NCBI GenBank assembly: GCA_949287425.1
Contig: CASEGJ010000005.1
Coordinates: 82,955-146,954, forward strand
Source: an uncultured Bacillales bacterium
GTDB lineage: Bacteria; Bacillota_I; Bacilli_A; RFN20; CAG-288
DNA: 64,000 nt
Direction: 5' to 3'
Below the pieces are notes generated by a model. That model did not search any database. It saw only the letters and a program-made list of their open reading frames with translations, and was not told the origin of the DNA. Made by a program: the position numbers and the translations under genes. Positions 1,688 through 48,442 of the stretch are shown here, one piece after another (position 1 is the stretch's first letter; each line of letters starts with the position of its first letter).

Positions 1688-2131
1688 ATGAGAAAATTTT
1701 ACGTTTGCAAAGGTTATGAAAATTCTCAAGTAAATCTTCCAACTAGAAGCACTAAATTCTCAGCTGGATATGATATTTCATCTATTCAAGATGTTACTAT
1801 TCCACCTCATGAAATGAGAATAGTACCAACTGGATTAAAAGCTCAAATGAATGAAGATGAAGCTTTATTTATCTATCCACGTTCTTCTTTAGGAAGAAAA
1901 AAATCACTGATGTTATCTAATAATATCGCAGTTATCGACGCTGATTATTTTGAAAATATCGATAATGATGGTCATATTATGATAAATCTATATAATTTTT
2001 CTAACAAAGAACAAAAAATTGAAAAAGGTGAAAGATTTGCTCAAGGTATTTTCATGAAATATTTAAAAACTGATGACGATATCGAATCAAAAAATTCTCG
2101 TCAAGGTGGATTTGGCTCAACAAATAAATAG
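1688..2131 (+). CDS. dut: dUTP diphosphatase
   Basis: 147 aa; dUTPase motifs AGYDI, RSSLG, IDADY, GERFAQ. RBS AAGGAG upstream. Confidence 0.8.
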   Translation: MRKFYVCKGYENSQVNLPTRSTKFSAGYDISSIQDVTIPPHEMRIVPTGLKAQMNEDEALFIYPRSSLGRKKSLMLSNNIAVIDADYFENIDNDGHIMINLYNFSNKEQKIEKGERFAQGIFMKYLKTDDDIESKNSRQGGFGSTNK

Positions 2132-2133
2132 AA

Positions 2134-3591
2134 ATGAAATATTCTAACCCTATCTTAAATGCTGATTATTCTGATCCTGATGTAATCTATCATAATGGAG
2201 GATATTATTTAGTATCTTCCTCTTTTAATTATGTCCCCGGGATTCCTGTAATGTATTCTACTGATTTGGTTAACTATAAAATTATTTCATACGTTATAAA
2301 AAAATTGCCAAGTTACTATAATAAAGTTCGTCCATCTAATGGGGCTTGGGCTCCCTCTATTCAATTTTATAAAGATAGATTTTACGTTTTTATTCCCTTT
2401 CCTGATAAAGGAATTTACTATTCGACATGTAAAAATCCTTTTAAAAGAGATTGGAGCAAATTAAAACCATTATATCTACTTAAAGGTATTGAAGATCCAA
2501 CTGTTCTATTTGAAAATAACAAAGCTTATCTTATCTTTGCTTTTGTTAAATCTAGAATTGGTTTCAATTCTAAATTAGCTTTAATGGAATTTTCGTTAGA
2601 TTTAAAAAAGAAATTGCTTCCTAATTATAAAATCATTTATGAAGCTGATGAAAATAGCCAAACAATAGAAGGGCCTAAAATATATAAAATTAATGATATT
2701 TACTATATATTTGCCCCGGCATTAGGAGTAGAACACGGCAGTCAAGTTGTCCTATCTTCTAAATCGATATATGGTCCATATAAACTAAAAACTGTTTTAA
2801 AAGAATGCGGAAATAAAATTAATGGACCTCATCAAGGTAGCTTAATCCATTTTAACGATAATCAATACGCTTTCTTGCATTTTTCACATGATGAAACATT
2901 AGGAAGAATAGTCTATCTTCAACCTGCTAAATTACTAGATAATGGCGAGTTTGAAATTGGAGATAATGGAAAGCCAATCTATAACGGAGAAATTCCAACA
3001 ATTGAAAATAAAACTAACTATATCGATTATTCAGATAAATTTAATTCAAATAAACTTAGTCTAATTTGGCAAACCCCCGCTAATGTTACTGATGATTTTA
3101 TCTTGCCAACTACAAGTGGATTATTTTTAACTACCAAGCAATTAAAAAAGCAAAATCTCGCTGATTTTCCATATGTTTTAACTCAAAAATTCTCTTCTAA
3201 AAAATTTGTTTGCTCAGTTGAATTTGAACTTTCAAATTTAAAAATAGGTGCTAATTTTGGATTAGCTATCATTGGAGAACAATTTTCCTATATAGAAATT
3301 TTAAAACGCCAAAATTCATTTTTAATTAGTTATTACACTCACAATTTAAATTCTAAAATAGATAAATTAATTAAACAAAAAGAATTTAATAAATTACCTA
3401 GCAATCAAATAATTTTGGAATTTGGTAACAACTTAGCAAACATATATTTAGATAAATCAAATTTCAATTACTCGTTTAACTGCATTAAACAGCATTATAT
3501 CGGTTTAAGAATCGGTCTATTTACTTATTCAAAAGATGAAATTGAAGATTCAAAAATTAAATTTACTAATTTTAATATTAAATATTTATAA
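2134..3591 (+). CDS. glycoside hydrolase family 43 (beta-xylosidase/alpha-L-arabinofuranosidase-like) with C-terminal beta-sandwich
   Basis: N-terminus NPILNADYSDPDVIY typical of GH43; internal IEGPKIYK catalytic-acid-like motif; 485 aa. Confidence 0.7.
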   Translation: MKYSNPILNADYSDPDVIYHNGGYYLVSSSFNYVPGIPVMYSTDLVNYKIISYVIKKLPSYYNKVRPSNGAWAPSIQFYKDRFYVFIPFPDKGIYYSTCKNPFKRDWSKLKPLYLLKGIEDPTVLFENNKAYLIFAFVKSRIGFNSKLALMEFSLDLKKKLLPNYKIIYEADENSQTIEGPKIYKINDIYYIFAPALGVEHGSQVVLSSKSIYGPYKLKTVLKECGNKINGPHQGSLIHFNDNQYAFLHFSHDETLGRIVYLQPAKLLDNGEFEIGDNGKPIYNGEIPTIENKTNYIDYSDKFNSNKLSLIWQTPANVTDDFILPTTSGLFLTTKQLKKQNLADFPYVLTQKFSSKKFVCSVEFELSNLKIGANFGLAIIGEQFSYIEILKRQNSFLISYYTHNLNSKIDKLIKQKEFNKLPSNQIILEFGNNLANIYLDKSNFNYSFNCIKQHYIGLRIGLFTYSKDEIEDSKIKFTNFNIKYL

Positions 3592-3602
3592 AAAGGAGCC
3601 TC

Positions 3603-4325
3603 ATGGAAAAGAATAAACAAACAATATACCCTGGCAGTGTATTTACTGCTAGACATTACGACCAATTTACTAAAAAATTCACTTCTCATCCTTTTGTCTG
3701 TGTCTATAATCAAGCGTTAGATGATTTAATGGATAAAGAGACAAACATCATAGGTTTATTAATTACTTCAAATAACAAGCAAGCGATTAGACAAGTGGAA
3801 ATTTCTAAATCTAAAAATCCATTTTTAGATAATGATTCTTACTGCTATTGTAATAACATTTACACTTTTGATAGAAAAGATATAAAGCTCATCGGCCAAA
3901 TTGATTCAGATACTTTCTTTCAAATAGTTAAAAAAAGACAAGCGATTATTAGAGGTGAAAACGATCAGTGTGTTCAAGCTTTAATGAACATGCGCGGATA
4001 TGAATCTAAAAAAGAAGTTCAAAAAAGAAACGAAATAAAAAAGAAAAAAACTATATCTATCAAACCTAAAAAGAAGAAAGAAAAAACAAAACTCACTATT
4101 AAGCCTAAAAAAGAAAACAAACTTCAAGTTCAAGCTTCATATTTTCCAAATTTTGAAAATACACAGACAAAATCCCTCCCCAATCGAAGAAATAACATTT
4201 CGCTAATTTCTAATCACAAAGAAACTTTACAGGAAAAAATCGAAAGAGAAAATTTCTCTTTTGAAGTAAATCCTGATGTTAGTAATATCAAATCTATAAA
4301 AAAGAAAGCCAAAAGGAAAAAATAA
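3603..4325 (+). CDS. hypothetical protein; N-terminal ~115 aa resembles MazF/PemK/CcdB-type fold; C-terminal Lys-rich low-complexity tail
   Basis: Pattern GSVFTA...HPFVCVYNQ...IIGLLITS...QVEIS...NNIYTFDRKDI...IDSDTFFQIV parallels MazF/EndoA block order (my own alignment by eye); KKKKTISIKPKKKKEKTKLTIKPKKENK tail; RBS GGAGCC... upstream; stop overlaps next start (TAATG). Confidence 0.35.
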   Translation: MEKNKQTIYPGSVFTARHYDQFTKKFTSHPFVCVYNQALDDLMDKETNIIGLLITSNNKQAIRQVEISKSKNPFLDNDSYCYCNNIYTFDRKDIKLIGQIDSDTFFQIVKKRQAIIRGENDQCVQALMNMRGYESKKEVQKRNEIKKKKTISIKPKKKKEKTKLTIKPKKENKLQVQASYFPNFENTQTKSLPNRRNNISLISNHKETLQEKIERENFSFEVNPDVSNIKSIKKKAKRKK

Positions 4326-4747
4326 TGAAAAAAATATATTTTTCAGCCTCTATTTCAGGAGGAAGAGACGATAGTCAAATCTATTCGTTAATAGTTGAAA
4401 AACTAAAAAAAGATTTTATTATTTTAACTGAACATATCGGAAACGAAAATCTAGTTAAAAAAGATAAAAACTTATCAGCTAAAGAGATTTATACCCGCGA
4501 TATTAATTTTTTAAATCAAGCCGATTTTGTTGTAGCGGAAGTTTCTACCCCATCTTTAGGAGTGGGATATGAACTTTCCTATGCGTTTAGTATAAATAAG
4601 CCAACTTATGTTTTATATAATTTAAATAAATCTAAACCTCTTTCTAAAATGATCTCAGGAAATCCATTTTTTAAAATATTTTATTATTCTAATTTAGATA
4701 TGTTAAATCAACAATTAGATCAAATTATCAAACTGCAAAAAAACTAA
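4325..4747 (+). CDS. 2'-deoxynucleoside 5'-phosphate N-hydrolase (DNPH1/Rcl)-like, nucleoside 2-deoxyribosyltransferase family
   Basis: YFSASISGGRDD...LTEHIGNE...ADFVVAEVSTPSLGVGYELSYA closely parallels the DNPH1 signature (YFCGSIRGGRED...VLTEHV...ADVVVAEVTQPSLGVGYELG). 1-nt overlap TAATG with upstream gene. Confidence 0.7.
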   Translation: MKKIYFSASISGGRDDSQIYSLIVEKLKKDFIILTEHIGNENLVKKDKNLSAKEIYTRDINFLNQADFVVAEVSTPSLGVGYELSYAFSINKPTYVLYNLNKSKPLSKMISGNPFFKIFYYSNLDMLNQQLDQIIKLQKN

Positions 4748-4789
4748 TATAATATCAATTGGAAAGTAGAAATATTATATGCCTTTGGA

Positions 4790-5067
4790 TGTAATCCTCT
4801 ACTTTGCTATTGTGGAACAACAATGAAGAAGAATTCGCCAAAAGAGATATTTACGATGAATATATAGACTTCAAATGTCTAAAATGCGGCGTCGAACACG
4901 AATTAGAAGCTGATATAGTTTTTAAATTGTTTGAACCTGAATATGAAGAATATCCAGAGTGAATTTGTAATGATTATAAGGGTGGAACTATGGTTCCAAT
5001 CGATATTTATAACAAGTTGAAGAAAAAAGAGTTCTTATTTTCAAAATACACTCTTCTTTTTTGTTAA
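4790..5067 (+). pseudogene. degenerate remnant of a small Cys-rich (zinc-ribbon-like) gene; needs a frameshift plus read-through of an in-frame TGA
   Basis: One frame reads CNPLLCYCGTTMKKNSPKEIFTMNI* (TAG stop); the overlapping next frame reads ...DFKCLKCGVEHELEADIVFKLFEPEYEEYPE-TGA-ICNDYKGGTMVPIDIYNKLKKKEFLFSKYTLLFC*. The second frame has no ATG start; no intact ORF appears in the six-frame track. Confidence 0.25.
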
Positions 5068-5070
5068 AAA
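5037..5070. terminator. possible bidirectional intrinsic terminator (AAGAGT...ACTCTT stem, 17-nt loop, T-runs on both sides)
   Basis: Hairpin 5037-5065 followed by TTTTTTG on + strand; its complement is followed by a T-run on the - strand, downstream of dnaJ. Confidence 0.3.
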
Positions 5071-32286: not shown

Positions 32287-33567
32287 ATGTCACAATTAGT
32301 AATCCAAGGTTCACAATGGGGCGATGAAGGTAAAGGCAAAATCACTGACTATTTTGCCCAACAAGCCGATATGGTAGTAAGATCCCAAGGCGGAAATAAC
32401 GCCGGTCATTCTATCGTATATAACAATCATCGCTACGCTTTAAAATTAGTTCCTTCTGGAATTTTTAATCCAAATACTATCAATGTTATCGCTAATGGAA
32501 CTGTTGTCAATCTAGAAGCTTTAAAAGGAGAACTAGATTTATTAGAAAGCCAAGGCATAACAAAATATCAACTTGTTATTTCTGATCGAGCTAATATCTT
32601 AATGCCTTATCATATTGATCTTGATGGAGCGAAAGAAGCAAACCTAGGTCAAGCTAAAATAGGTACAACCAAAAAAGGCATTGGACCTTGCTATACTTCC
32701 AAAGCTGAAAGGATTGGCTTAAGAATGGGAGATTTACTTGAAGACGAATATCTTAAAGATCACCTTAAAAGCATTCTACCTATAATTAATATCGAACTGA
32801 AATCTTACAATTTAAAAGAATATAGCTTCGATGAAGTCTACTCGTATTTAAAAAAATACGCTGAAATATTCAAAGACAAAATTACTAACACCTCAATTCT
32901 CATTAACAAATATATAAAAGAAAATAAAAAAGTCCTTTTTGAAGGAGCTCAAGGAGCCATGTTATGTTTAGATCATGGCACTTATCCTTATGTTACTTCT
33001 TCTTCACCTTTAGCAAATGGCGTAAGTTTAAATAGCGGAGTTGCTTGCTATCTTTTAGATAAAGTTTTGGGTGTAGCTAAAGCTTATACTACTAGAGTTG
33101 GCGAAGGCCCTTTCCCTTCTGAACTCTTTGATAAAAATGCCGATTTATTGCGTGAAAAAGGACATGAGTATGGAACAGTTACCAAACGACCAAGAAGAAT
33201 AGGTTATTTAGATTGCGTAGTGCTAAATTACGTTAAAAACATCACTGGCATGCAACATTTAGCTTTAATGTTAGTAGATGTTTTATCAGTTTTAGATGAA
33301 CTTAAAATCTGCGTTTCTTATTCATTAGATGGAAAAACTATCGACTATGTTCCTTCTAATTTATACGCTTATAATAGATGCAAACCAAACTATATTACTC
33401 TACCTACTTTTAAAGAAGATATCTCTAATTGTAAAAGTTATGATGAACTTCCTACTAATTGTAAGAAATATATTGAAGCCATCGAAGAAATTACCGGATT
33501 AAAAGTTTCTATTATTTCAGTCGGTCCAGATAGAAATCAAACTATCGTTAGAGAAAAATTATTCTAA
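32287..33567 (+). CDS. purA: adenylosuccinate synthetase
   Basis: QWGDEGKGKITD P-loop, GNNAGHS, full-length 426 aa. Confidence 0.9.
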   Translation: MSQLVIQGSQWGDEGKGKITDYFAQQADMVVRSQGGNNAGHSIVYNNHRYALKLVPSGIFNPNTINVIANGTVVNLEALKGELDLLESQGITKYQLVISDRANILMPYHIDLDGAKEANLGQAKIGTTKKGIGPCYTSKAERIGLRMGDLLEDEYLKDHLKSILPIINIELKSYNLKEYSFDEVYSYLKKYAEIFKDKITNTSILINKYIKENKKVLFEGAQGAMLCLDHGTYPYVTSSSPLANGVSLNSGVACYLLDKVLGVAKAYTTRVGEGPFPSELFDKNADLLREKGHEYGTVTKRPRRIGYLDCVVLNYVKNITGMQHLALMLVDVLSVLDELKICVSYSLDGKTIDYVPSNLYAYNRCKPNYITLPTFKEDISNCKSYDELPTNCKKYIEAIEEITGLKVSIISVGPDRNQTIVREKLF

Positions 33568-34157
33568 TCTAAATTTTCTTTTAAATAATCTAACATCAAT
33601 TTTAAGGCTTTGCCTCTATGAGAGACAGAGTCTTTTTCTTTTGGACTAGCAACTCCGAACGATTTTTTCAATTCATATGAATAAAAAATTGGATCATAGC
33701 CAAAACCATTTTCGCCAGTGATTTGATATAAAATTTCCCCTTGAGTCTTTCCAACAAAAACCTTATCTTCATTTTTAAAATTAACTAAGGCGATAGCGGA
33801 AGTAAAATTAGCTCCTCTATCTTTTTTATCTTCTAGCATTTTAATAATTGCATTTTGTTTATCTTCATAAGAACTATTTTCCATAAATCTTTGAGAATAT
33901 ATACCAGGAAAATTATTTAAAGCGTGAACTTCTAAACCTGAATCATCGCTAAAAATTATTTTATTAGGAAGCTTATTAGAAATATATCTAGCTTTAATTA
34001 ATGCATTTTCTTCAAAAGTAGAGCCAGTTTCTTCAACATTTAAATCAATATTAAAATCTTTTAAAGAATACACTTTAAAACCTAACGGTTCTAACATTCT
34101 TTTAAATTCTTCTATCTTGTGAATATTACTAGTTGCCACTACTGCTTCTTTTTCCAT
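33564..34157 (-). CDS. rdgB: non-canonical purine NTP pyrophosphatase (RdgB/HAM1 family)
   Basis: 197 aa; ATSNIHKIEEF, FSDDSGLEV and GYDPIF motifs of the Ham1 family. Confidence 0.85.
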   Translation of the reverse strand: MEKEAVVATSNIHKIEEFKRMLEPLGFKVYSLKDFNIDLNVEETGSTFEENALIKARYISNKLPNKIIFSDDSGLEVHALNNFPGIYSQRFMENSSYEDKQNAIIKMLEDKKDRGANFTSAIALVNFKNEDKVFVGKTQGEILYQITGENGFGYDPIFYSYELKKSFGVASPKEKDSVSHRGKALKLMLDYLKENLD

Positions 34158-36129: not shown

Positions 36130-36780
36130 TTATTCAACTAATTTAGGTCCGTTAGAAGTTCCAATTCTACTAGCTCCAGCTTGAATTAATTCTTCCATAA
36201 ATTCTTTGGTTTTAATTCCACCAGAAGCCTTAATCTTTGGGAAATCTCCGCATACTTCATGGAGCAATTTAACATCTTCAACAGTAGCCCCATACTTAGA
36301 AAAACCAGTAGAAGTCTTAACAAAATCAACACCGGCTTCTTTGCATAGTTCACAAGCTTTAATCTTCTCTTCTTTAGTTAATAGACAACATTCAATAATT
36401 ACTTTTAAAATTATAGGATGCTGCTCAGTATAACAAGTTCTTCTCATTCTTTTTAATTCGTAGAGAATATCATCGTATTTTTTATCTTTTAACCAAGAGA
36501 TATTTATGACCATATCAATTTCATCGGCACCTTCAAAAATAGATTCTTTAGCTTCCTCAATTTTTGCAATTGTTGACATAGCGCCTAATGGAAAACCGAC
36601 AACCGTACAAGTTTTAACATCGCTTCCTTCTAATTGACGATGAACTAATCCAACATAGTCACCATTTACACAACAAGAAGCAAAATTGTACTTTTTAGCT
36701 TCTTGACATAAATCGATAATTTCTTGTTGAGTAGCATCTGCTCTAAGTAAGGTTGAATCAATTAATTTATTATATTCCAT
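36130..36780 (-). CDS. deoC: deoxyribose-phosphate aldolase
   Basis: 216 aa; KASGGIKT Schiff-base lysine motif; class I aldolase TIM barrel. Confidence 0.85.
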   Translation of the reverse strand: MEYNKLIDSTLLRADATQQEIIDLCQEAKKYNFASCCVNGDYVGLVHRQLEGSDVKTCTVVGFPLGAMSTIAKIEEAKESIFEGADEIDMVINISWLKDKKYDDILYELKRMRRTCYTEQHPIILKVIIECCLLTKEEKIKACELCKEAGVDFVKTSTGFSKYGATVEDVKLLHEVCGDFPKIKASGGIKTKEFMEELIQAGASRIGTSNGPKLVE

Positions 36781-47833: not shown

Positions 47834-48442
47834 ATGATTTGGAAATTAAAAAATATCATTCAGGAAACAAATCACCCATTTTTAAACTATTTTACCTTAA
47901 CATACGAGGTTGAAGATTCTAATAATCAAATAAAACAATATTCGTATTTTATGGCCTCAAGAAGAAAAAAAGAAGAATTAGTCTGTTTGCATAAAGATAA
48001 AAACTACGCCGATGGAGTTTTAATTCCTTGCTATTTTATCGACCCTAAAACTAACCTTTTATCTTTAATAGTCACTAAACAATTTAGACCAGCTTTAAAT
48101 AGATACGTTCATTCTTTTCCTGCTGGCTTAGTTGATAAAGATGAAGATTTAATTACCGCTAGTAAACGCGAAGCTTTAGAAGAGGTGGGAGCAGTTATCG
48201 ATAAAGCGGAAATATTATGTAGACCTGGTCCAACTTCAAGTGGACTTTCTGACGAATTAAACGCTATTGTTTTAGCTCATGTCAGTCACTTTGACAAAAA
48301 ACACCTTGAAGAATTTGAAGATATCAATTTTAGAATAGTGCCATTTAAAGATTTAGAAAAAGAATTAAGTGAACATTTCTTCGCTTTGCAAATTCAAATT
48401 ATTTGTCGATATTTATTGTTGTATTTTAAAGGTCAATATTAA
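47834..48442 (+). CDS. NUDIX hydrolase (ADP-ribose pyrophosphatase-like)
   Basis: Nudix box GLVDKDEDLITASKREALEEVGA. Confidence 0.8.
   Translation: MIWKLKNIIQETNHPFLNYFTLTYEVEDSNNQIKQYSYFMASRRKKEELVCLHKDKNYADGVLIPCYFIDPKTNLLSLIVTKQFRPALNRYVHSFPAGLVDKDEDLITASKREALEEVGAVIDKAEILCRPGPTSSGLSDELNAIVLAHVSHFDKKHLEEFEDINFRIVPFKDLEKELSEHFFALQIQIICRYLLLYFKGQY

What the first reader, a model, noticed from the sequence alone, without database searches (positions are those of the whole stretch)
3603..4747. Translationally coupled MazF/PemK-like Lys-tailed protein and DNPH1/Rcl-like dNMP N-hydrolase
The 140-aa downstream protein carries an almost textbook DNPH1 signature (SISGGRDD...LTEHIGNE...VVAEVSTPSLGVGYELSYA), from a family characterised mainly in animals. 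Its start overlaps the stop of a 240-aa protein (TAATG). The N-terminal ~115 aa of that protein have the block order of MazF/PemK endoribonucleases (GSVF...HPFVCVYNQ...IIGLLITS...NNIYTFDRKDI...IDSDTFFQIV). It is followed by a KKKK/KPKK-rich tail and has no MazE-like antitoxin upstream; GH43 ends 12 nt before it. A PemK-fold protein coupled to a nucleoside-2-deoxyribosyltransferase-fold protein is not a described toxin-antitoxin or defence architecture. Nucleoside deoxyribosyltransferase-like (SLOG/NDT) folds recur as nucleotide-sensing or nucleotide-processing modules in conflict systems, so the pair may be a small nucleotide-targeting module. Alternatively the Rcl-like enzyme may simply belong to deoxynucleotide salvage, producing deoxyribose-5-phosphate for the deoC product elsewhere in the window.
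Basis: partly seen in the sequence, partly recalled or inferred. Interest (0 to 1): 0.65.

Follow-up and report, generated by a model that had tools for sequence, protein, structure and literature searches.

The report
Orphan MazF-like protein beside DNPH1-like hydrolase
Two overlapping genes in an uncultured gut Bacilli genome encode a divergent MazF-fold protein with a lysine-rich disordered tail and a bacterial DNPH1-type deoxynucleotide hydrolase; they end a conserved housekeeping gene block that starts with dUTPase, and they do not look like a toxin-antitoxin or phage-defence pair.

Summary
Both ORFs are real: X at 3603-4325 and NDT at 4325-4747, sharing a TAATG junction.

**NDT.** It is a clear DNPH1/Rcl-type enzyme.
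- It matches PF05014 at 3e-13 and is 42% identical to rat DNPH1.
- The Tyr/Asp/Glu triad and the phosphate-binding serines are kept.
- The family is common in bacteria, with at least 438 clusters, and usually occurs without X.

- The window protein misses the Pfam model.
- An invariant His sits where MazF has its catalytic Arg. The catalytic Thr is kept.
- There is no antitoxin gene.
- The 105-residue basic tail is variable and disordered.

**Context.** X belongs to a small family (32 clusters) of uncultured Bacilli.
- It was not found in the phage, viral or plasmid collections searched.
- It sits in a syntenic block, dut-GH43-X-NDT.
- Its MazF domain is the most conserved protein of that block.

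NDT follows X directly in 8 of 14 evaluable lineages, so the pairing is frequent but not obligatory.

**Best reading.** X is a vertically inherited, domesticated MazF-like nucleic-acid-binding protein that possibly still cleaves RNA. It is co-transcribed with a dNMP N-hydrolase that more plausibly works with dUTPase and DeoC. Interest is moderate.

The parts
1688..2131 (+). dUTPase gene (dut), first gene of the conserved block
   Evidence: Pfam PF00692 at 6e-24. It lies upstream of X in 10 of 15 evaluable lineages.
2134..3591 (+). Cytoplasmic GH43 glycoside hydrolase with a C-terminal ConA-like domain, 2 nt after dut
   Evidence: Pfam PF04616 at 2.6e-44 and PF17851 at 4e-11. It lies between dut and X in most lineages that have the block.
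3593..3598 (+). Shine-Dalgarno-like AAGGAG, 4 nt before the X start codon
   Evidence: Read directly from the sequence.
3603..4325 (+). Gene X: 240-aa orphan MazF/PemK-fold protein with a basic tail
   Evidence: ORF. It has 32 homologous 90%-identity clusters. See the sub-parts below.
3624..3935 (+). MazF-fold core of X (residues 8-111), with His29 at or next to the catalytic-Arg position and Thr55 at the catalytic-Thr position
3936..4007 (+). Conserved helical extension (residues 112-135, R-x4-RGENDQCVQALMNM-x4-E) that MazF lacks
   Evidence: Invariant R112, R117, E119, D121, Q122, C123, L127 and E134. It is predicted as part of a long helix spanning residues 102-151.
4008..4322 (+). Disordered K/N/Q-rich basic tail (residues 136-240)
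   Evidence: pI 10.4. Tails are basic in all 32 relatives (pI 9.4-10.8), while their length and sequence vary. pLDDT is below 50.
4218..4265 (+). Tail motif KETLQEKIERENFSFE (residues 206-221), a short acidic/aromatic island conserved in the sub-clade
   Evidence: Conserved in P0002-P0007 and L026. It is the only tail segment with raised pLDDT, 64-74.
4313..4317 (+). Shine-Dalgarno-like AAGGA for NDT, inside the 3' end of X
   Evidence: An SD-like purine run precedes the NDT start in all six lineages examined.
4325..4747 (+). DNPH1/Rcl-type 2'-deoxynucleoside 5'-phosphate N-hydrolase gene (NDT)
   Evidence: PF05014 at 3e-13. PDB DNPH1 at 4e-22. Y5, D59 and E83, plus S9, S77 and S107, match rat Y13, D69 and E93, plus S17, S87 and S117 (residue roles).
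36130..36780 (-). deoC (deoxyribose-phosphate aldolase), the possible consumer of the NDT product; distant context only
   Evidence: Pfam PF01791 at 5.7e-17.

Best explanation
X and NDT are the last two genes of a vertically inherited chromosomal block, dut-GH43-X-NDT. The block is found in a small clade of uncultured, AT-rich gut Bacilli.

**NDT.** It is a bacterial DNPH1-type enzyme that hydrolyses the N-glycosidic bond of deoxynucleoside 5'-monophosphates, giving a free base and deoxyribose 5-phosphate. It most plausibly acts downstream of dUTPase in clearing or recycling unwanted dNMPs, and DeoC can use the sugar phosphate. The enzyme class is shown by sequence. The substrate and the pathway role are inferred.

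**X.** It is a domesticated member of the MazF/PemK superfamily. It has a MazF-fold core, an extra conserved helix and a long basic disordered tail. It needs no antitoxin gene.

I infer that X binds single-stranded nucleic acid, most likely RNA, in the MazF groove. The tail would add non-specific affinity. X may still cut RNA, with invariant His29 in place of the usual catalytic Arg and with the retained Thr55.

**The junction.** The tight X-NDT junction reflects co-transcription and translational coupling within the operon. It does not reflect an obligatory toxin-partner relationship.
For: **NDT identity**
- PF05014 scores above its cut-off.
- The best PDB matches are all DNPH1.
- Identity to rat DNPH1 is 42%, with the catalytic and phosphate-binding residues conserved.

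**NDT is independent of X**
- At least 438 clusters exist, in Anaerofustis, Bacteroidota, Sphaerochaetaceae and Patescibacteria.
- The Anaerofustis copy stands alone.

**Precedent for a Dut plus DNPH1-like partnership**
- DutZ and DmtZ are adjacent or fused in Z-genome phages (PMC12884076).

**X fold**
- AF2 pLDDT is 79.7.
- Foldseek top-50 hits are all MazF-family toxins (MazF/EndoA/MoxT).
- A profile search of PDB returns 14 hits, all MazF-family toxins (MazF, EndoA/YdcE, PemK).
- hhalign gives E 2.7e-5.
- 2 of 32 relatives and several short relatives hit PemK_toxin or phrog_1936.

**Housekeeping character of X**
- Synteny is conserved.
- The X core is 56-76% identical across lineages in which dut is 51-72%, GH43 34-56% and NDT 42-51% identical.
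- 41 positions are invariant.
- The X clade is absent from IMG/VR, from the phage and plasmid collections, and from PADLOC.
- No antitoxin ORF is present.
- X occurs alone or with other downstream genes in 6 lineages.

**Operon structure**
- Gaps are 2, 11 and -1 nt, and no terminator-like site lies between GH43 and NDT.
- SD-like sites sit inside the X 3' end in six lineages.
Against: - The canonical catalytic Arg of MazF is missing, so RNase activity is uncertain. X could be a pure binder.
- The window protein itself does not reach any Pfam or PDB sequence threshold.
- The X-NDT junction is the most resilient link of the block. It survives in two lineages that have lost dut and GH43 nearby (L017, L033). 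Nothing is ever inserted between the two genes, whereas insertions do occur between GH43 and X. This hints at some functional tie that this explanation treats as mere operon inheritance.
- Short relatives of X sit in phage DNA-replication modules, so a DNA-directed role is possible.
- No experimental data exist for any member.
Confidence: 0.55

Rival explanations
1. X is a catalytically dead MazF-fold 'pseudo-toxin'. It serves only as a nucleic-acid-binding or protein-binding factor, for example an RNA chaperone or a ribosome- or nucleoid-associated protein. Its basic tail does much of the binding.
For: - There is no Arg at the catalytic position.
- The tail is always basic and disordered.
- There is no antitoxin, yet the gene is stably inherited.
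Against: - The invariant polar residues His29, Thr55, Lys59, Gln60, Asp78, Ser79 and Asn85 look like a maintained active or recognition site.
- His is a competent general acid/base in many RNases (general knowledge).
Confidence: 0.25
2. X is a single-chain, self-inhibited MazF-type toxin. An acidic/aromatic motif in its own tail (ERENFSFE here, VFSFEPE or VIIGEP in other sub-clades) folds back into the RNA groove like the C-terminus of MazE. A stress or proteolytic signal would release it.
For: - The motif is conserved within otherwise variable tails.
- It is the only tail segment with raised model confidence, pLDDT 64-74 against below 50 elsewhere.
- A MazF fold with no antitoxin gene needs some explanation.
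Against: - Model coordinates could not be inspected, so docking is not shown.
- The motif is absent or unrecognisable in several members (P0012-P0017).
- The tail is basic overall, unlike acidic MazE tails.
- The resemblance to MazE is recalled from memory and was not tested.
Confidence: 0.12
3. X and NDT form a two-gene conflict module, toxin-antitoxin-like or anti-phage. The MazF-like protein would be the effector. The NDT-fold protein would be its nucleotide-sensing or nucleotide-processing partner.
For: - NDT is immediately downstream of X in 8 of 14 evaluable lineages. In the six junctions measured the spacing is -8 to +11 nt.
- The pair persists without dut and GH43 in L017 and L033.
- DNPH1 is now known to act on 5-hydroxymethyl-dUMP (PDB names), and hmU is used by some phages (general knowledge).
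Against: - X occurs without NDT in 6 lineages, and NDT occurs without X in hundreds of clusters.
- Inheritance is syntenic and vertical, among housekeeping genes.
- The X core is more conserved than dUTPase.
- There are no PADLOC hits, and no mobile-element or defence-island context in the window.
- NDT keeps a complete DNPH1 active site, so it looks like an enzyme rather than a sensor.
- Short relatives of X never have NDT.
Confidence: 0.08

Closest known systems
MazF / EndoA / PemK-Kid endoribonuclease toxins (Pfam PF02452; e.g. B. subtilis EndoA 4MDX, S. aureus MazF 4MZM, M. tuberculosis MazF-mt3 5HK0)
   Same: - The sequence blocks come in the same order.
- Thr55 aligns with catalytic Thr48, and the DS-x5-N/Q strand is conserved.
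   Different: - There is no Arg at the catalytic R25/R29 position. An invariant His29-Pro30 sits there instead.
- X has an extra conserved helix (residues 112-135) and a 75-213-residue basic disordered tail.
- It has no MazE/PemI antitoxin gene.
- It is inherited vertically and syntenically, not patchily or on mobile elements.
- The window protein is below Pfam threshold.
Phage 'MazF-like growth inhibitor' / PemK-like proteins (PHROG 1936; BFVD entries such as Brochothrix phage A9 Gp171, 206 aa)
   Same: - Short tail-less relatives of X (P0036, P0042, P0062 and others) match phrog_1936 at up to 8e-11 and lie in phage-like gene strings.
- Some phage PemK-like proteins also carry extensions of about 100 residues.
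   Different: - The long-tailed X clade itself has no PHROG hit.
- It was not found in IMG/VR or in deposited phage genomes.
- It sits in a conserved chromosomal block.
DNPH1 / Rcl (2'-deoxynucleoside 5'-phosphate N-hydrolase; rat 4FYH/2KHZ, human 4P5E)
   Same: - NDT is 42% identical to rat DNPH1 over 111 residues.
- The Tyr-Asp-Glu catalytic residues are kept.
- The phosphate-binding serines and the glycine-rich loop are kept.
- The size is the same, about 140 aa.
   Different: - It is bacterial, and its substrate preference is unknown.
- Rat Arg19 is Ser11 here; only its backbone is used in the rat structure.
- It is encoded in an operon with dut.
DutZ-DmtZ of Z-genome bacteriophages (dUTPase-like triphosphatase plus DNPH1-like dAMP N-glycosidase, adjacent or fused; PMC12884076)
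   Same: A dUTPase-family enzyme and a DNPH1-like dNMP N-glycosidase are encoded together and act in sequence on one nucleotide pool.
   Different: - Here the two genes are separated by GH43 and X.
- The locus is cellular, not phage.
- The dut looks like an ordinary dUTPase.
- No evidence of modified DNA was looked for or seen in the window.

Membership tests
MazF/PemK superfamily (CcdB/MazF fold) | SH3-like beta-barrel core with a C-terminal helix, superposable on solved MazF or Kid structures | tested here: met
   [not shown]
MazF/PemK superfamily (CcdB/MazF fold) | Sequence match to Pfam PF02452 PemK_toxin above the gathering score | tested here: not met
   The window protein has no Pfam hit, even at E<=1. 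Only 2 of 32 relatives match, best 2e-07. Precomputed hits are 'faint'.
MazF/PemK superfamily (CcdB/MazF fold) | Profile-level homology to MazF sequences | tested here: inconclusive
   The broad family profile against PDB returns 14 hits, all MazF-family toxins (MazF, EndoA/YdcE, PemK), but the best E is only 0.004. hhalign against three MazFs gives probability 74% and E 2.7e-5. The narrow profile gives only 2%.
MazF endoribonuclease (active toxin) | Catalytic Arg (B. subtilis R25 / E. coli R29) at the start of strand 2 | tested here: not met
   hhalign places X H29/P30 opposite G23-R25. No Arg is present. His29 is invariant in the long-tailed clade, and the position is Gly in distant short relatives. 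The catalytic role of R25 is recalled from the literature.
MazF endoribonuclease (active toxin) | Catalytic or transition-state Thr (B. subtilis T48 / E. coli T52) in the I-T-x motif | tested here: met
   Invariant T55 in LLITS aligns with T48 of AAITAQ.
MazF endoribonuclease (active toxin) | Sequence-specific RNA cleavage and growth inhibition | not testable with these tools
   This needs in vitro cleavage and toxicity assays.
Type II toxin-antitoxin module (MazEF/PemIK type) | Adjacent small antitoxin gene, usually upstream, with a DNA-binding domain and an acidic toxin-binding tail | tested here: not met
   Upstream is a 485-aa GH43 gene ending 11 nt before X. In other lineages the upstream gene is dut, GH43 or an unrelated gene. 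Downstream NDT is an intact enzyme.
Type II toxin-antitoxin module (MazEF/PemIK type) | The two genes co-occur obligatorily, with a patchy or mobile distribution | tested here: not met
   NDT is adjacent in 8 of 14 evaluable lineages only. The block is syntenic. The X clade is absent from the plasmid, phage and viral collections.
DNPH1/Rcl dNMP N-hydrolase (within PF05014 Nuc_deoxyrib_tr) | PF05014 match above the gathering score, closest to DNPH1 among solved structures | tested here: met
   The score is 50.4 bits against a cut-off of 28.8. The top 12 PDB sequences are all DNPH1/Rcl, at E 4e-22 to 2e-19.
DNPH1/Rcl dNMP N-hydrolase (within PF05014 Nuc_deoxyrib_tr) | Catalytic Tyr13, Asp69 and Glu93 (rat numbering) | tested here: met
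   Y5, D59 and E83 align with them. The role of Glu93 is confirmed in PMC3834327. The roles of Tyr13 and Asp69 are recalled from the literature.
DNPH1/Rcl dNMP N-hydrolase (within PF05014 Nuc_deoxyrib_tr) | 5'-phosphate pocket (Ser87, Ser17/Ser117', Gly-rich loop 16-20, Gly89), which separates dNMP hydrolases from nucleoside transferases | tested here: met
   S77, S9, S107, the loop S9-I-S-G-G13 and G79 align with these residues.
DNPH1/Rcl dNMP N-hydrolase (within PF05014 Nuc_deoxyrib_tr) | dNMP N-glycosidase activity and substrate preference | not testable with these tools
   This needs an enzyme assay.
Known anti-phage defence systems (PADLOC-DB v2) | Match of either protein to a defence-system model | tested here: not met
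   Neither protein matches any family at E<=1.
Dut + DNPH1-like nucleotide-clearing pair (DutZ-DmtZ type) | dUTPase-family and DNPH1-like genes consistently encoded together | tested here: inconclusive
   The two genes share the operon-like block in 6 lineages, always separated by X and usually also by GH43. NDT occurs without dut nearby in L017, L033 and Anaerofustis.

The most novel reading that the evidence does not exclude
X and NDT are a true functional unit, in which a MazF-fold nucleic-acid-binding or -cleaving protein works with a dNMP N-hydrolase. One possibility is a chromosomal system that detects or destroys aberrant deoxynucleotides (dU- or hmU-type) or nucleic acids containing them. 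Another is that X is a single-chain, self-inhibited MazF toxin whose tail acts as a built-in antitoxin. Either would be a new architecture for the MazF superfamily.
Probability: 0.12. Interest if true: 0.7.

Novelty: new variant of a known kind. Interest (0 to 1): 0.38.

Why it matters
MazF-fold proteins are known almost only as toxins held in check by an antitoxin. Here a clade is vertically inherited and more conserved than dUTPase, lacks an antitoxin gene, has swapped the catalytic Arg for His, and has gained a basic disordered tail.

That combination would be an example of a toxin fold recruited to a core cellular role in small-genome gut Bacilli. It offers a handle on how such recruitment happens.

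The DNPH1-like gene shows that the animal 'DNPH1' enzyme type is widespread in bacteria and can sit in one operon with dUTPase. This supports a general two-step route for clearing unwanted deoxynucleotides.

Neither point is dramatic. All function here is inferred from sequence and predicted structure.

Tried and rejected
**Searches that found nothing**
- PDB sequence searches with X alone found nothing.
- The full-length family profile found only a low-complexity hit to the huntingtin polyQ tract.
- The narrow N-domain profile found one chance hit. MazF appeared only after distant short relatives were added.
- NCBIfam, PADLOC and PHROGs gave nothing for X.
- IMG/VR, INPHARED phages and PLSDB plasmids held no relative of the X core.

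- The viral locus search with the broad alignment failed because the alignment has no conserved stretch.
- The afdb50 fold library was unavailable.
- The promoter scan is uninformative in this AT-rich DNA: 43 sites found against 34.9 +/- 6.5 expected. It cannot show whether NDT has its own promoter.
I therefore could not test whether the tail motif docks on the core.

**Ideas considered and set aside**
- I considered a His/Cys metal site formed by H29, C33, C81 and C123, but could not test it without coordinates. H29 and C33 lie four residues apart on one strand, which argues against a shared site.
- I considered genetic code 4 because of an in-frame TGA in the small ORF after NDT. I rejected it because all long ORFs are intact under code 11 and the same TGA ends the gene in L001.

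**Literature**
- Searches found no paper that pairs MazF with a deoxyribosyltransferase-fold protein.
Full report
**1. What is in the sequence**

On the + strand, four ORFs are tightly packed:

| Gene | Coordinates | Size |
|---|---|---|
| dut | 1688-2131 | 147 aa |
| GH43 | 2134-3591 | 485 aa |
| X | 3603-4325 | 240 aa |
| NDT | 4325-4747 | 140 aa |

- The X stop codon and the NDT start codon share one base (TAATG).
- X is preceded by AAGGAG (3593-3598). NDT is preceded by AAGGA (4313-4317), inside the end of X.
- Upstream lies a P-type ATPase gene cut by the window edge. Downstream, on the other strand, lie dnaJ, dnaK, grpE and hrcA.
- No terminator-like hairpin lies between GH43 and NDT. 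Promoter-like matches are at chance level in this AT-rich DNA.

**2. The downstream protein (NDT)**

NDT matches Pfam PF05014 at 50.4 bits against a cut-off of 28.8. Its twelve best solved-structure matches are all rat or human DNPH1/Rcl, at E 4e-22 to 2e-19.

Over the aligned 111 residues it is 42% identical to rat DNPH1. The functional residues line up as follows.

| Rat DNPH1 | NDT here | Role |
|---|---|---|
| Tyr13 | Tyr5 | catalytic |
| Asp69 | Asp59 | catalytic |
| Glu93 | Glu83 | catalytic |
| Ser17 | Ser9 | phosphate pocket |
| Ser87 | Ser77 | phosphate pocket |
| Ser117 | Ser107 | phosphate pocket |
| Gly89 | Gly79 | phosphate pocket |

A rat DNPH1 crystal-structure paper (PMC3834327) assigns phosphate binding to Ser87, Ser17' and the 18-20 backbone, and sugar binding to Glu93.

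The family is not unusual in bacteria. A word-indexed search returned 438 clusters at E<1e-5. Source names include Anaerofustis, Bacteroidota, Sphaerochaetaceae and Patescibacteria, and most are annotated 'nucleoside 2-deoxyribosyltransferase'. The Anaerofustis copy stands alone, with neither X nor dut nearby.

**3. The upstream protein (X)**

By sequence alone, X matches nothing in Pfam, NCBIfam, PADLOC, PHROGs or PDB.

*Family and conservation.*
- It has 32 relatives among 90%-identity clusters, all from metagenomes or MAGs labelled Bacilli.
- The first ~135 residues are strikingly conserved, with 41 invariant positions.
- The rest is a variable K/N/Q-rich tail of 75-213 residues. The tail is always basic, pI 9.4-10.8.

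*Fold.*
- An AlphaFold model of the N-domain has pLDDT 79.7.
- Foldseek against PDB returns MazF-family toxins (MazF, EndoA/YdcE, MoxT) in all top 50 places, best E 3.8e-6 and TM 0.63/0.74.

*More distant relatives.*
- An exhaustive profile search found 62 proteins. Among them are short tail-less relatives of 111-169 aa.
- Some of these match PemK_toxin (P0062 at 8e-9) and PHROG 1936, 'MazF-like growth inhibitor' (P0062 at 8e-11).
- A profile that includes them hits 14 PDB sequences, all MazF-family toxins (MazF, EndoA/YdcE, PemK), best E 0.004.
- That profile aligns to three MazF sequences by hhalign with E 2.7e-5 and 74% probability. X residues 8-111 align with B. subtilis MazF residues 3-106. 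I checked the B. subtilis sequence against 4ME7.

The MazF/PemK fold assignment is therefore supported.

**4. How X differs from a working MazF toxin**

- Invariant Thr55 (LLITS) sits on the catalytic Thr48 of B. subtilis MazF.
- The catalytic Arg25-Pro26 position is occupied by invariant His29-Pro30. There is no Arg. Distant short relatives have Gly there.
- X adds a conserved helix that MazF lacks (residues 112-135, RGENDQCVQALMNM). It also adds the basic tail.
- In the full-length model the core is confident (pLDDT about 90), and a long helix runs from residue 102 to 151.
- The tail is disordered (pLDDT below 50) except for residues 201-220, at 64-74. This segment covers the motif LQEKIERENFSFE.
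- That motif is conserved in the nearest sub-clade. Other sub-clades carry VFSFEPE or VIIGEP at the equivalent place.
- I could not inspect coordinates, so whether this motif docks on the core is unknown.

**5. Genomic context across lineages**

I collected contexts through exact-protein look-ups, a scan of GTDB species genomes and a metagenome scan. I scored them by tblastn with the window's proteins.

After merging near-identical loci, the long-tailed clade gives 15 lineages.

| Feature | Present | Absent |
|---|---|---|
| NDT immediately after X (14 evaluable lineages) | 8 | 6 |
| dut within 4 kb upstream of X (15 evaluable lineages) | 10 | 5 |

- In the six junctions measured, X-NDT spacing ranged from -8 to +11 nt, each with an SD-like purine run inside the end of X.
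- Where NDT is absent, X is followed by an aldo-keto reductase (UBA6879 lineage), convergent genes (L010) or a HAD phosphatase (Ca. Scatoplasma). In L013 it stands alone beside a divergent gene.
- GH43 usually lies between dut and X. Glycerol kinase often precedes dut.
- Insertions occur between GH43 and X (L005, L012) but never between X and NDT.
- In two lineages (L017, L033) the X-NDT pair persists without dut nearby.

Identity to the window's proteins, across those lineages:

| Protein | Identity to the window's copy |
|---|---|
| X core | 56-76% |
| dut | 51-72% |
| NDT | 42-51% |
| GH43 | 34-56% |

In every pairwise comparison the X core is the best-conserved protein of the block.

The X clade has no relative in IMG/VR, in deposited phage genomes or in PLSDB plasmids.

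Short tail-less relatives have different contexts:
- P0034 follows Maf and Dus on a chromosome.
- P0036 and P0042 lie in strings of small unannotated ORFs.
- P0035 lies in a phage-type replication module: SbcD-like, SbcC-like, X', thymidylate synthase, DNA polymerase A.
- None has an NDT neighbour.

**6. Interpretation**

The proposed conflict module does not fit well, for these reasons:
- The pairing is not obligatory in either direction.
- The locus is vertically inherited among housekeeping genes.
- X is under stronger constraint than dUTPase.
- No antitoxin, mobile element or defence gene is nearby.
- NDT keeps a full enzymatic site.

The simplest account has two parts.

*NDT.* It is a nucleotide-metabolism enzyme co-transcribed with dut. 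It would turn dNMPs, perhaps dUMP made by dUTPase, into base plus deoxyribose 5-phosphate. DeoC at 36130-36780 can use that product. There is a precedent in Z-genome phages: a dUTPase-like enzyme and a DNPH1-like dAMP N-glycosidase are adjacent or fused and act in sequence (PMC12884076).

*X.* It is best seen as a domesticated MazF-fold protein. The fold and the basic tail point to binding of single-stranded nucleic acid. The invariant His29, Thr55 and neighbouring polar residues leave room for retained RNase chemistry, with His replacing Arg. This last step is inference, and I rate it about even.

The resilience of the X-NDT junction is the one observation that hints at more than operon inheritance. 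I carry it forward as the basis of the novel reading.

**7. Novelty and score**

NDT is a new member of a known enzyme family. X is a new variant of the MazF/PemK kind, because it:
- has no antitoxin gene;
- belongs to a conserved core block;
- has Arg replaced by His;
- carries a basic disordered tail.

A specialist would find the domestication angle mildly surprising. Nothing here is yet mechanistically compelling or experimentally anchored.

Interest is 0.38. The most novel reading not excluded is a true X-NDT functional unit, or a self-inhibited single-chain toxin. I give it about 0.12.

**Limits**
- All lineages are uncultured.
- The collection scans relied on exact peptide patterns, so the lineage census is incomplete.
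- The 'uncultured Treponema' label of L010 looks like a binning error, because its genes are 56-76% identical to the window's.
- No activity has been measured for any member.

Noticed in passing
window 1688-3591; also L003, L005, L007, L010, L012, L026: A cytoplasmic-looking GH43 glycoside hydrolase is conserved directly after dUTPase, 2 nt apart here and overlapping by gene calls in L003, L005 and L007. This holds across lineages where it is only 34-56% identical. A glycoside hydrolase locked to dut is an odd and unexplained partnership.
   Followed up: partly
L030 2053-5724 (also L031, L032): A short tail-less relative of X (P0035, 145 aa, E 1e-33) overlaps the end of an SbcC-like gene. It sits in a phage-type replication module: SbcD-like, SbcC-like, X', thymidylate synthase, cold-shock protein, DNA polymerase A. 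This suggests the wider family is tied to DNA or nucleotide metabolism in phages.
   Followed up: partly
L019 2466-4444 (also L020): Another tail-less relative (P0034, 147 aa) sits 13 nt after tRNA-dihydrouridine synthase (Dus), with Maf nucleotide pyrophosphatase just upstream. This is a chromosomal housekeeping context with, again, no antitoxin.
   Followed up: no
window 3687-3701, 3843-3851, 3969-3971 (X residues H29, C33, C81, C83, C123): His29, Cys33 and Cys123 are invariant, and Cys81 nearly so, in the long-tailed clade and its closest short relatives. This could be a metal or redox site, but it could not be tested without model coordinates.
   Followed up: no
window 4748-5070 versus L001 7146-7505: The small gene after NDT encodes 76 aa with a CxxC motif in the near-identical contig L001. 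In the window it has lost its 5' part: the homologous frame starts only at a TTG (4804) and ends at the same TGA (4962). This is a local deletion between otherwise ~99% identical sequences.
   Followed up: partly
L003 10605-10738 (UBA6879 lineage): A PvuRts1I-like/SRA gene, of the family of restriction enzymes that depend on 5-hydroxymethylcytosine, lies about 5 kb downstream of X. This is in the lineage where NDT is missing. It is probably coincidental.
   Followed up: no
window 33564-34157 (-) and 47834-48442 (+): Further nucleotide house-cleaning genes lie in the window: a Ham1/ITPase family protein (1.4e-58) and a NUDIX hydrolase. Together with dut, NDT and deoC, they make a well-stocked nucleotide-sanitation set for what looks like a small genome.
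   Followed up: no
L010 (CAVGYR010000137.1): A contig labelled 'uncultured Treponema sp.' carries dut-GH43-X that is 56-76% identical to the window's Bacilli-type genes. This is probably a mis-binned contig.
   Followed up: no
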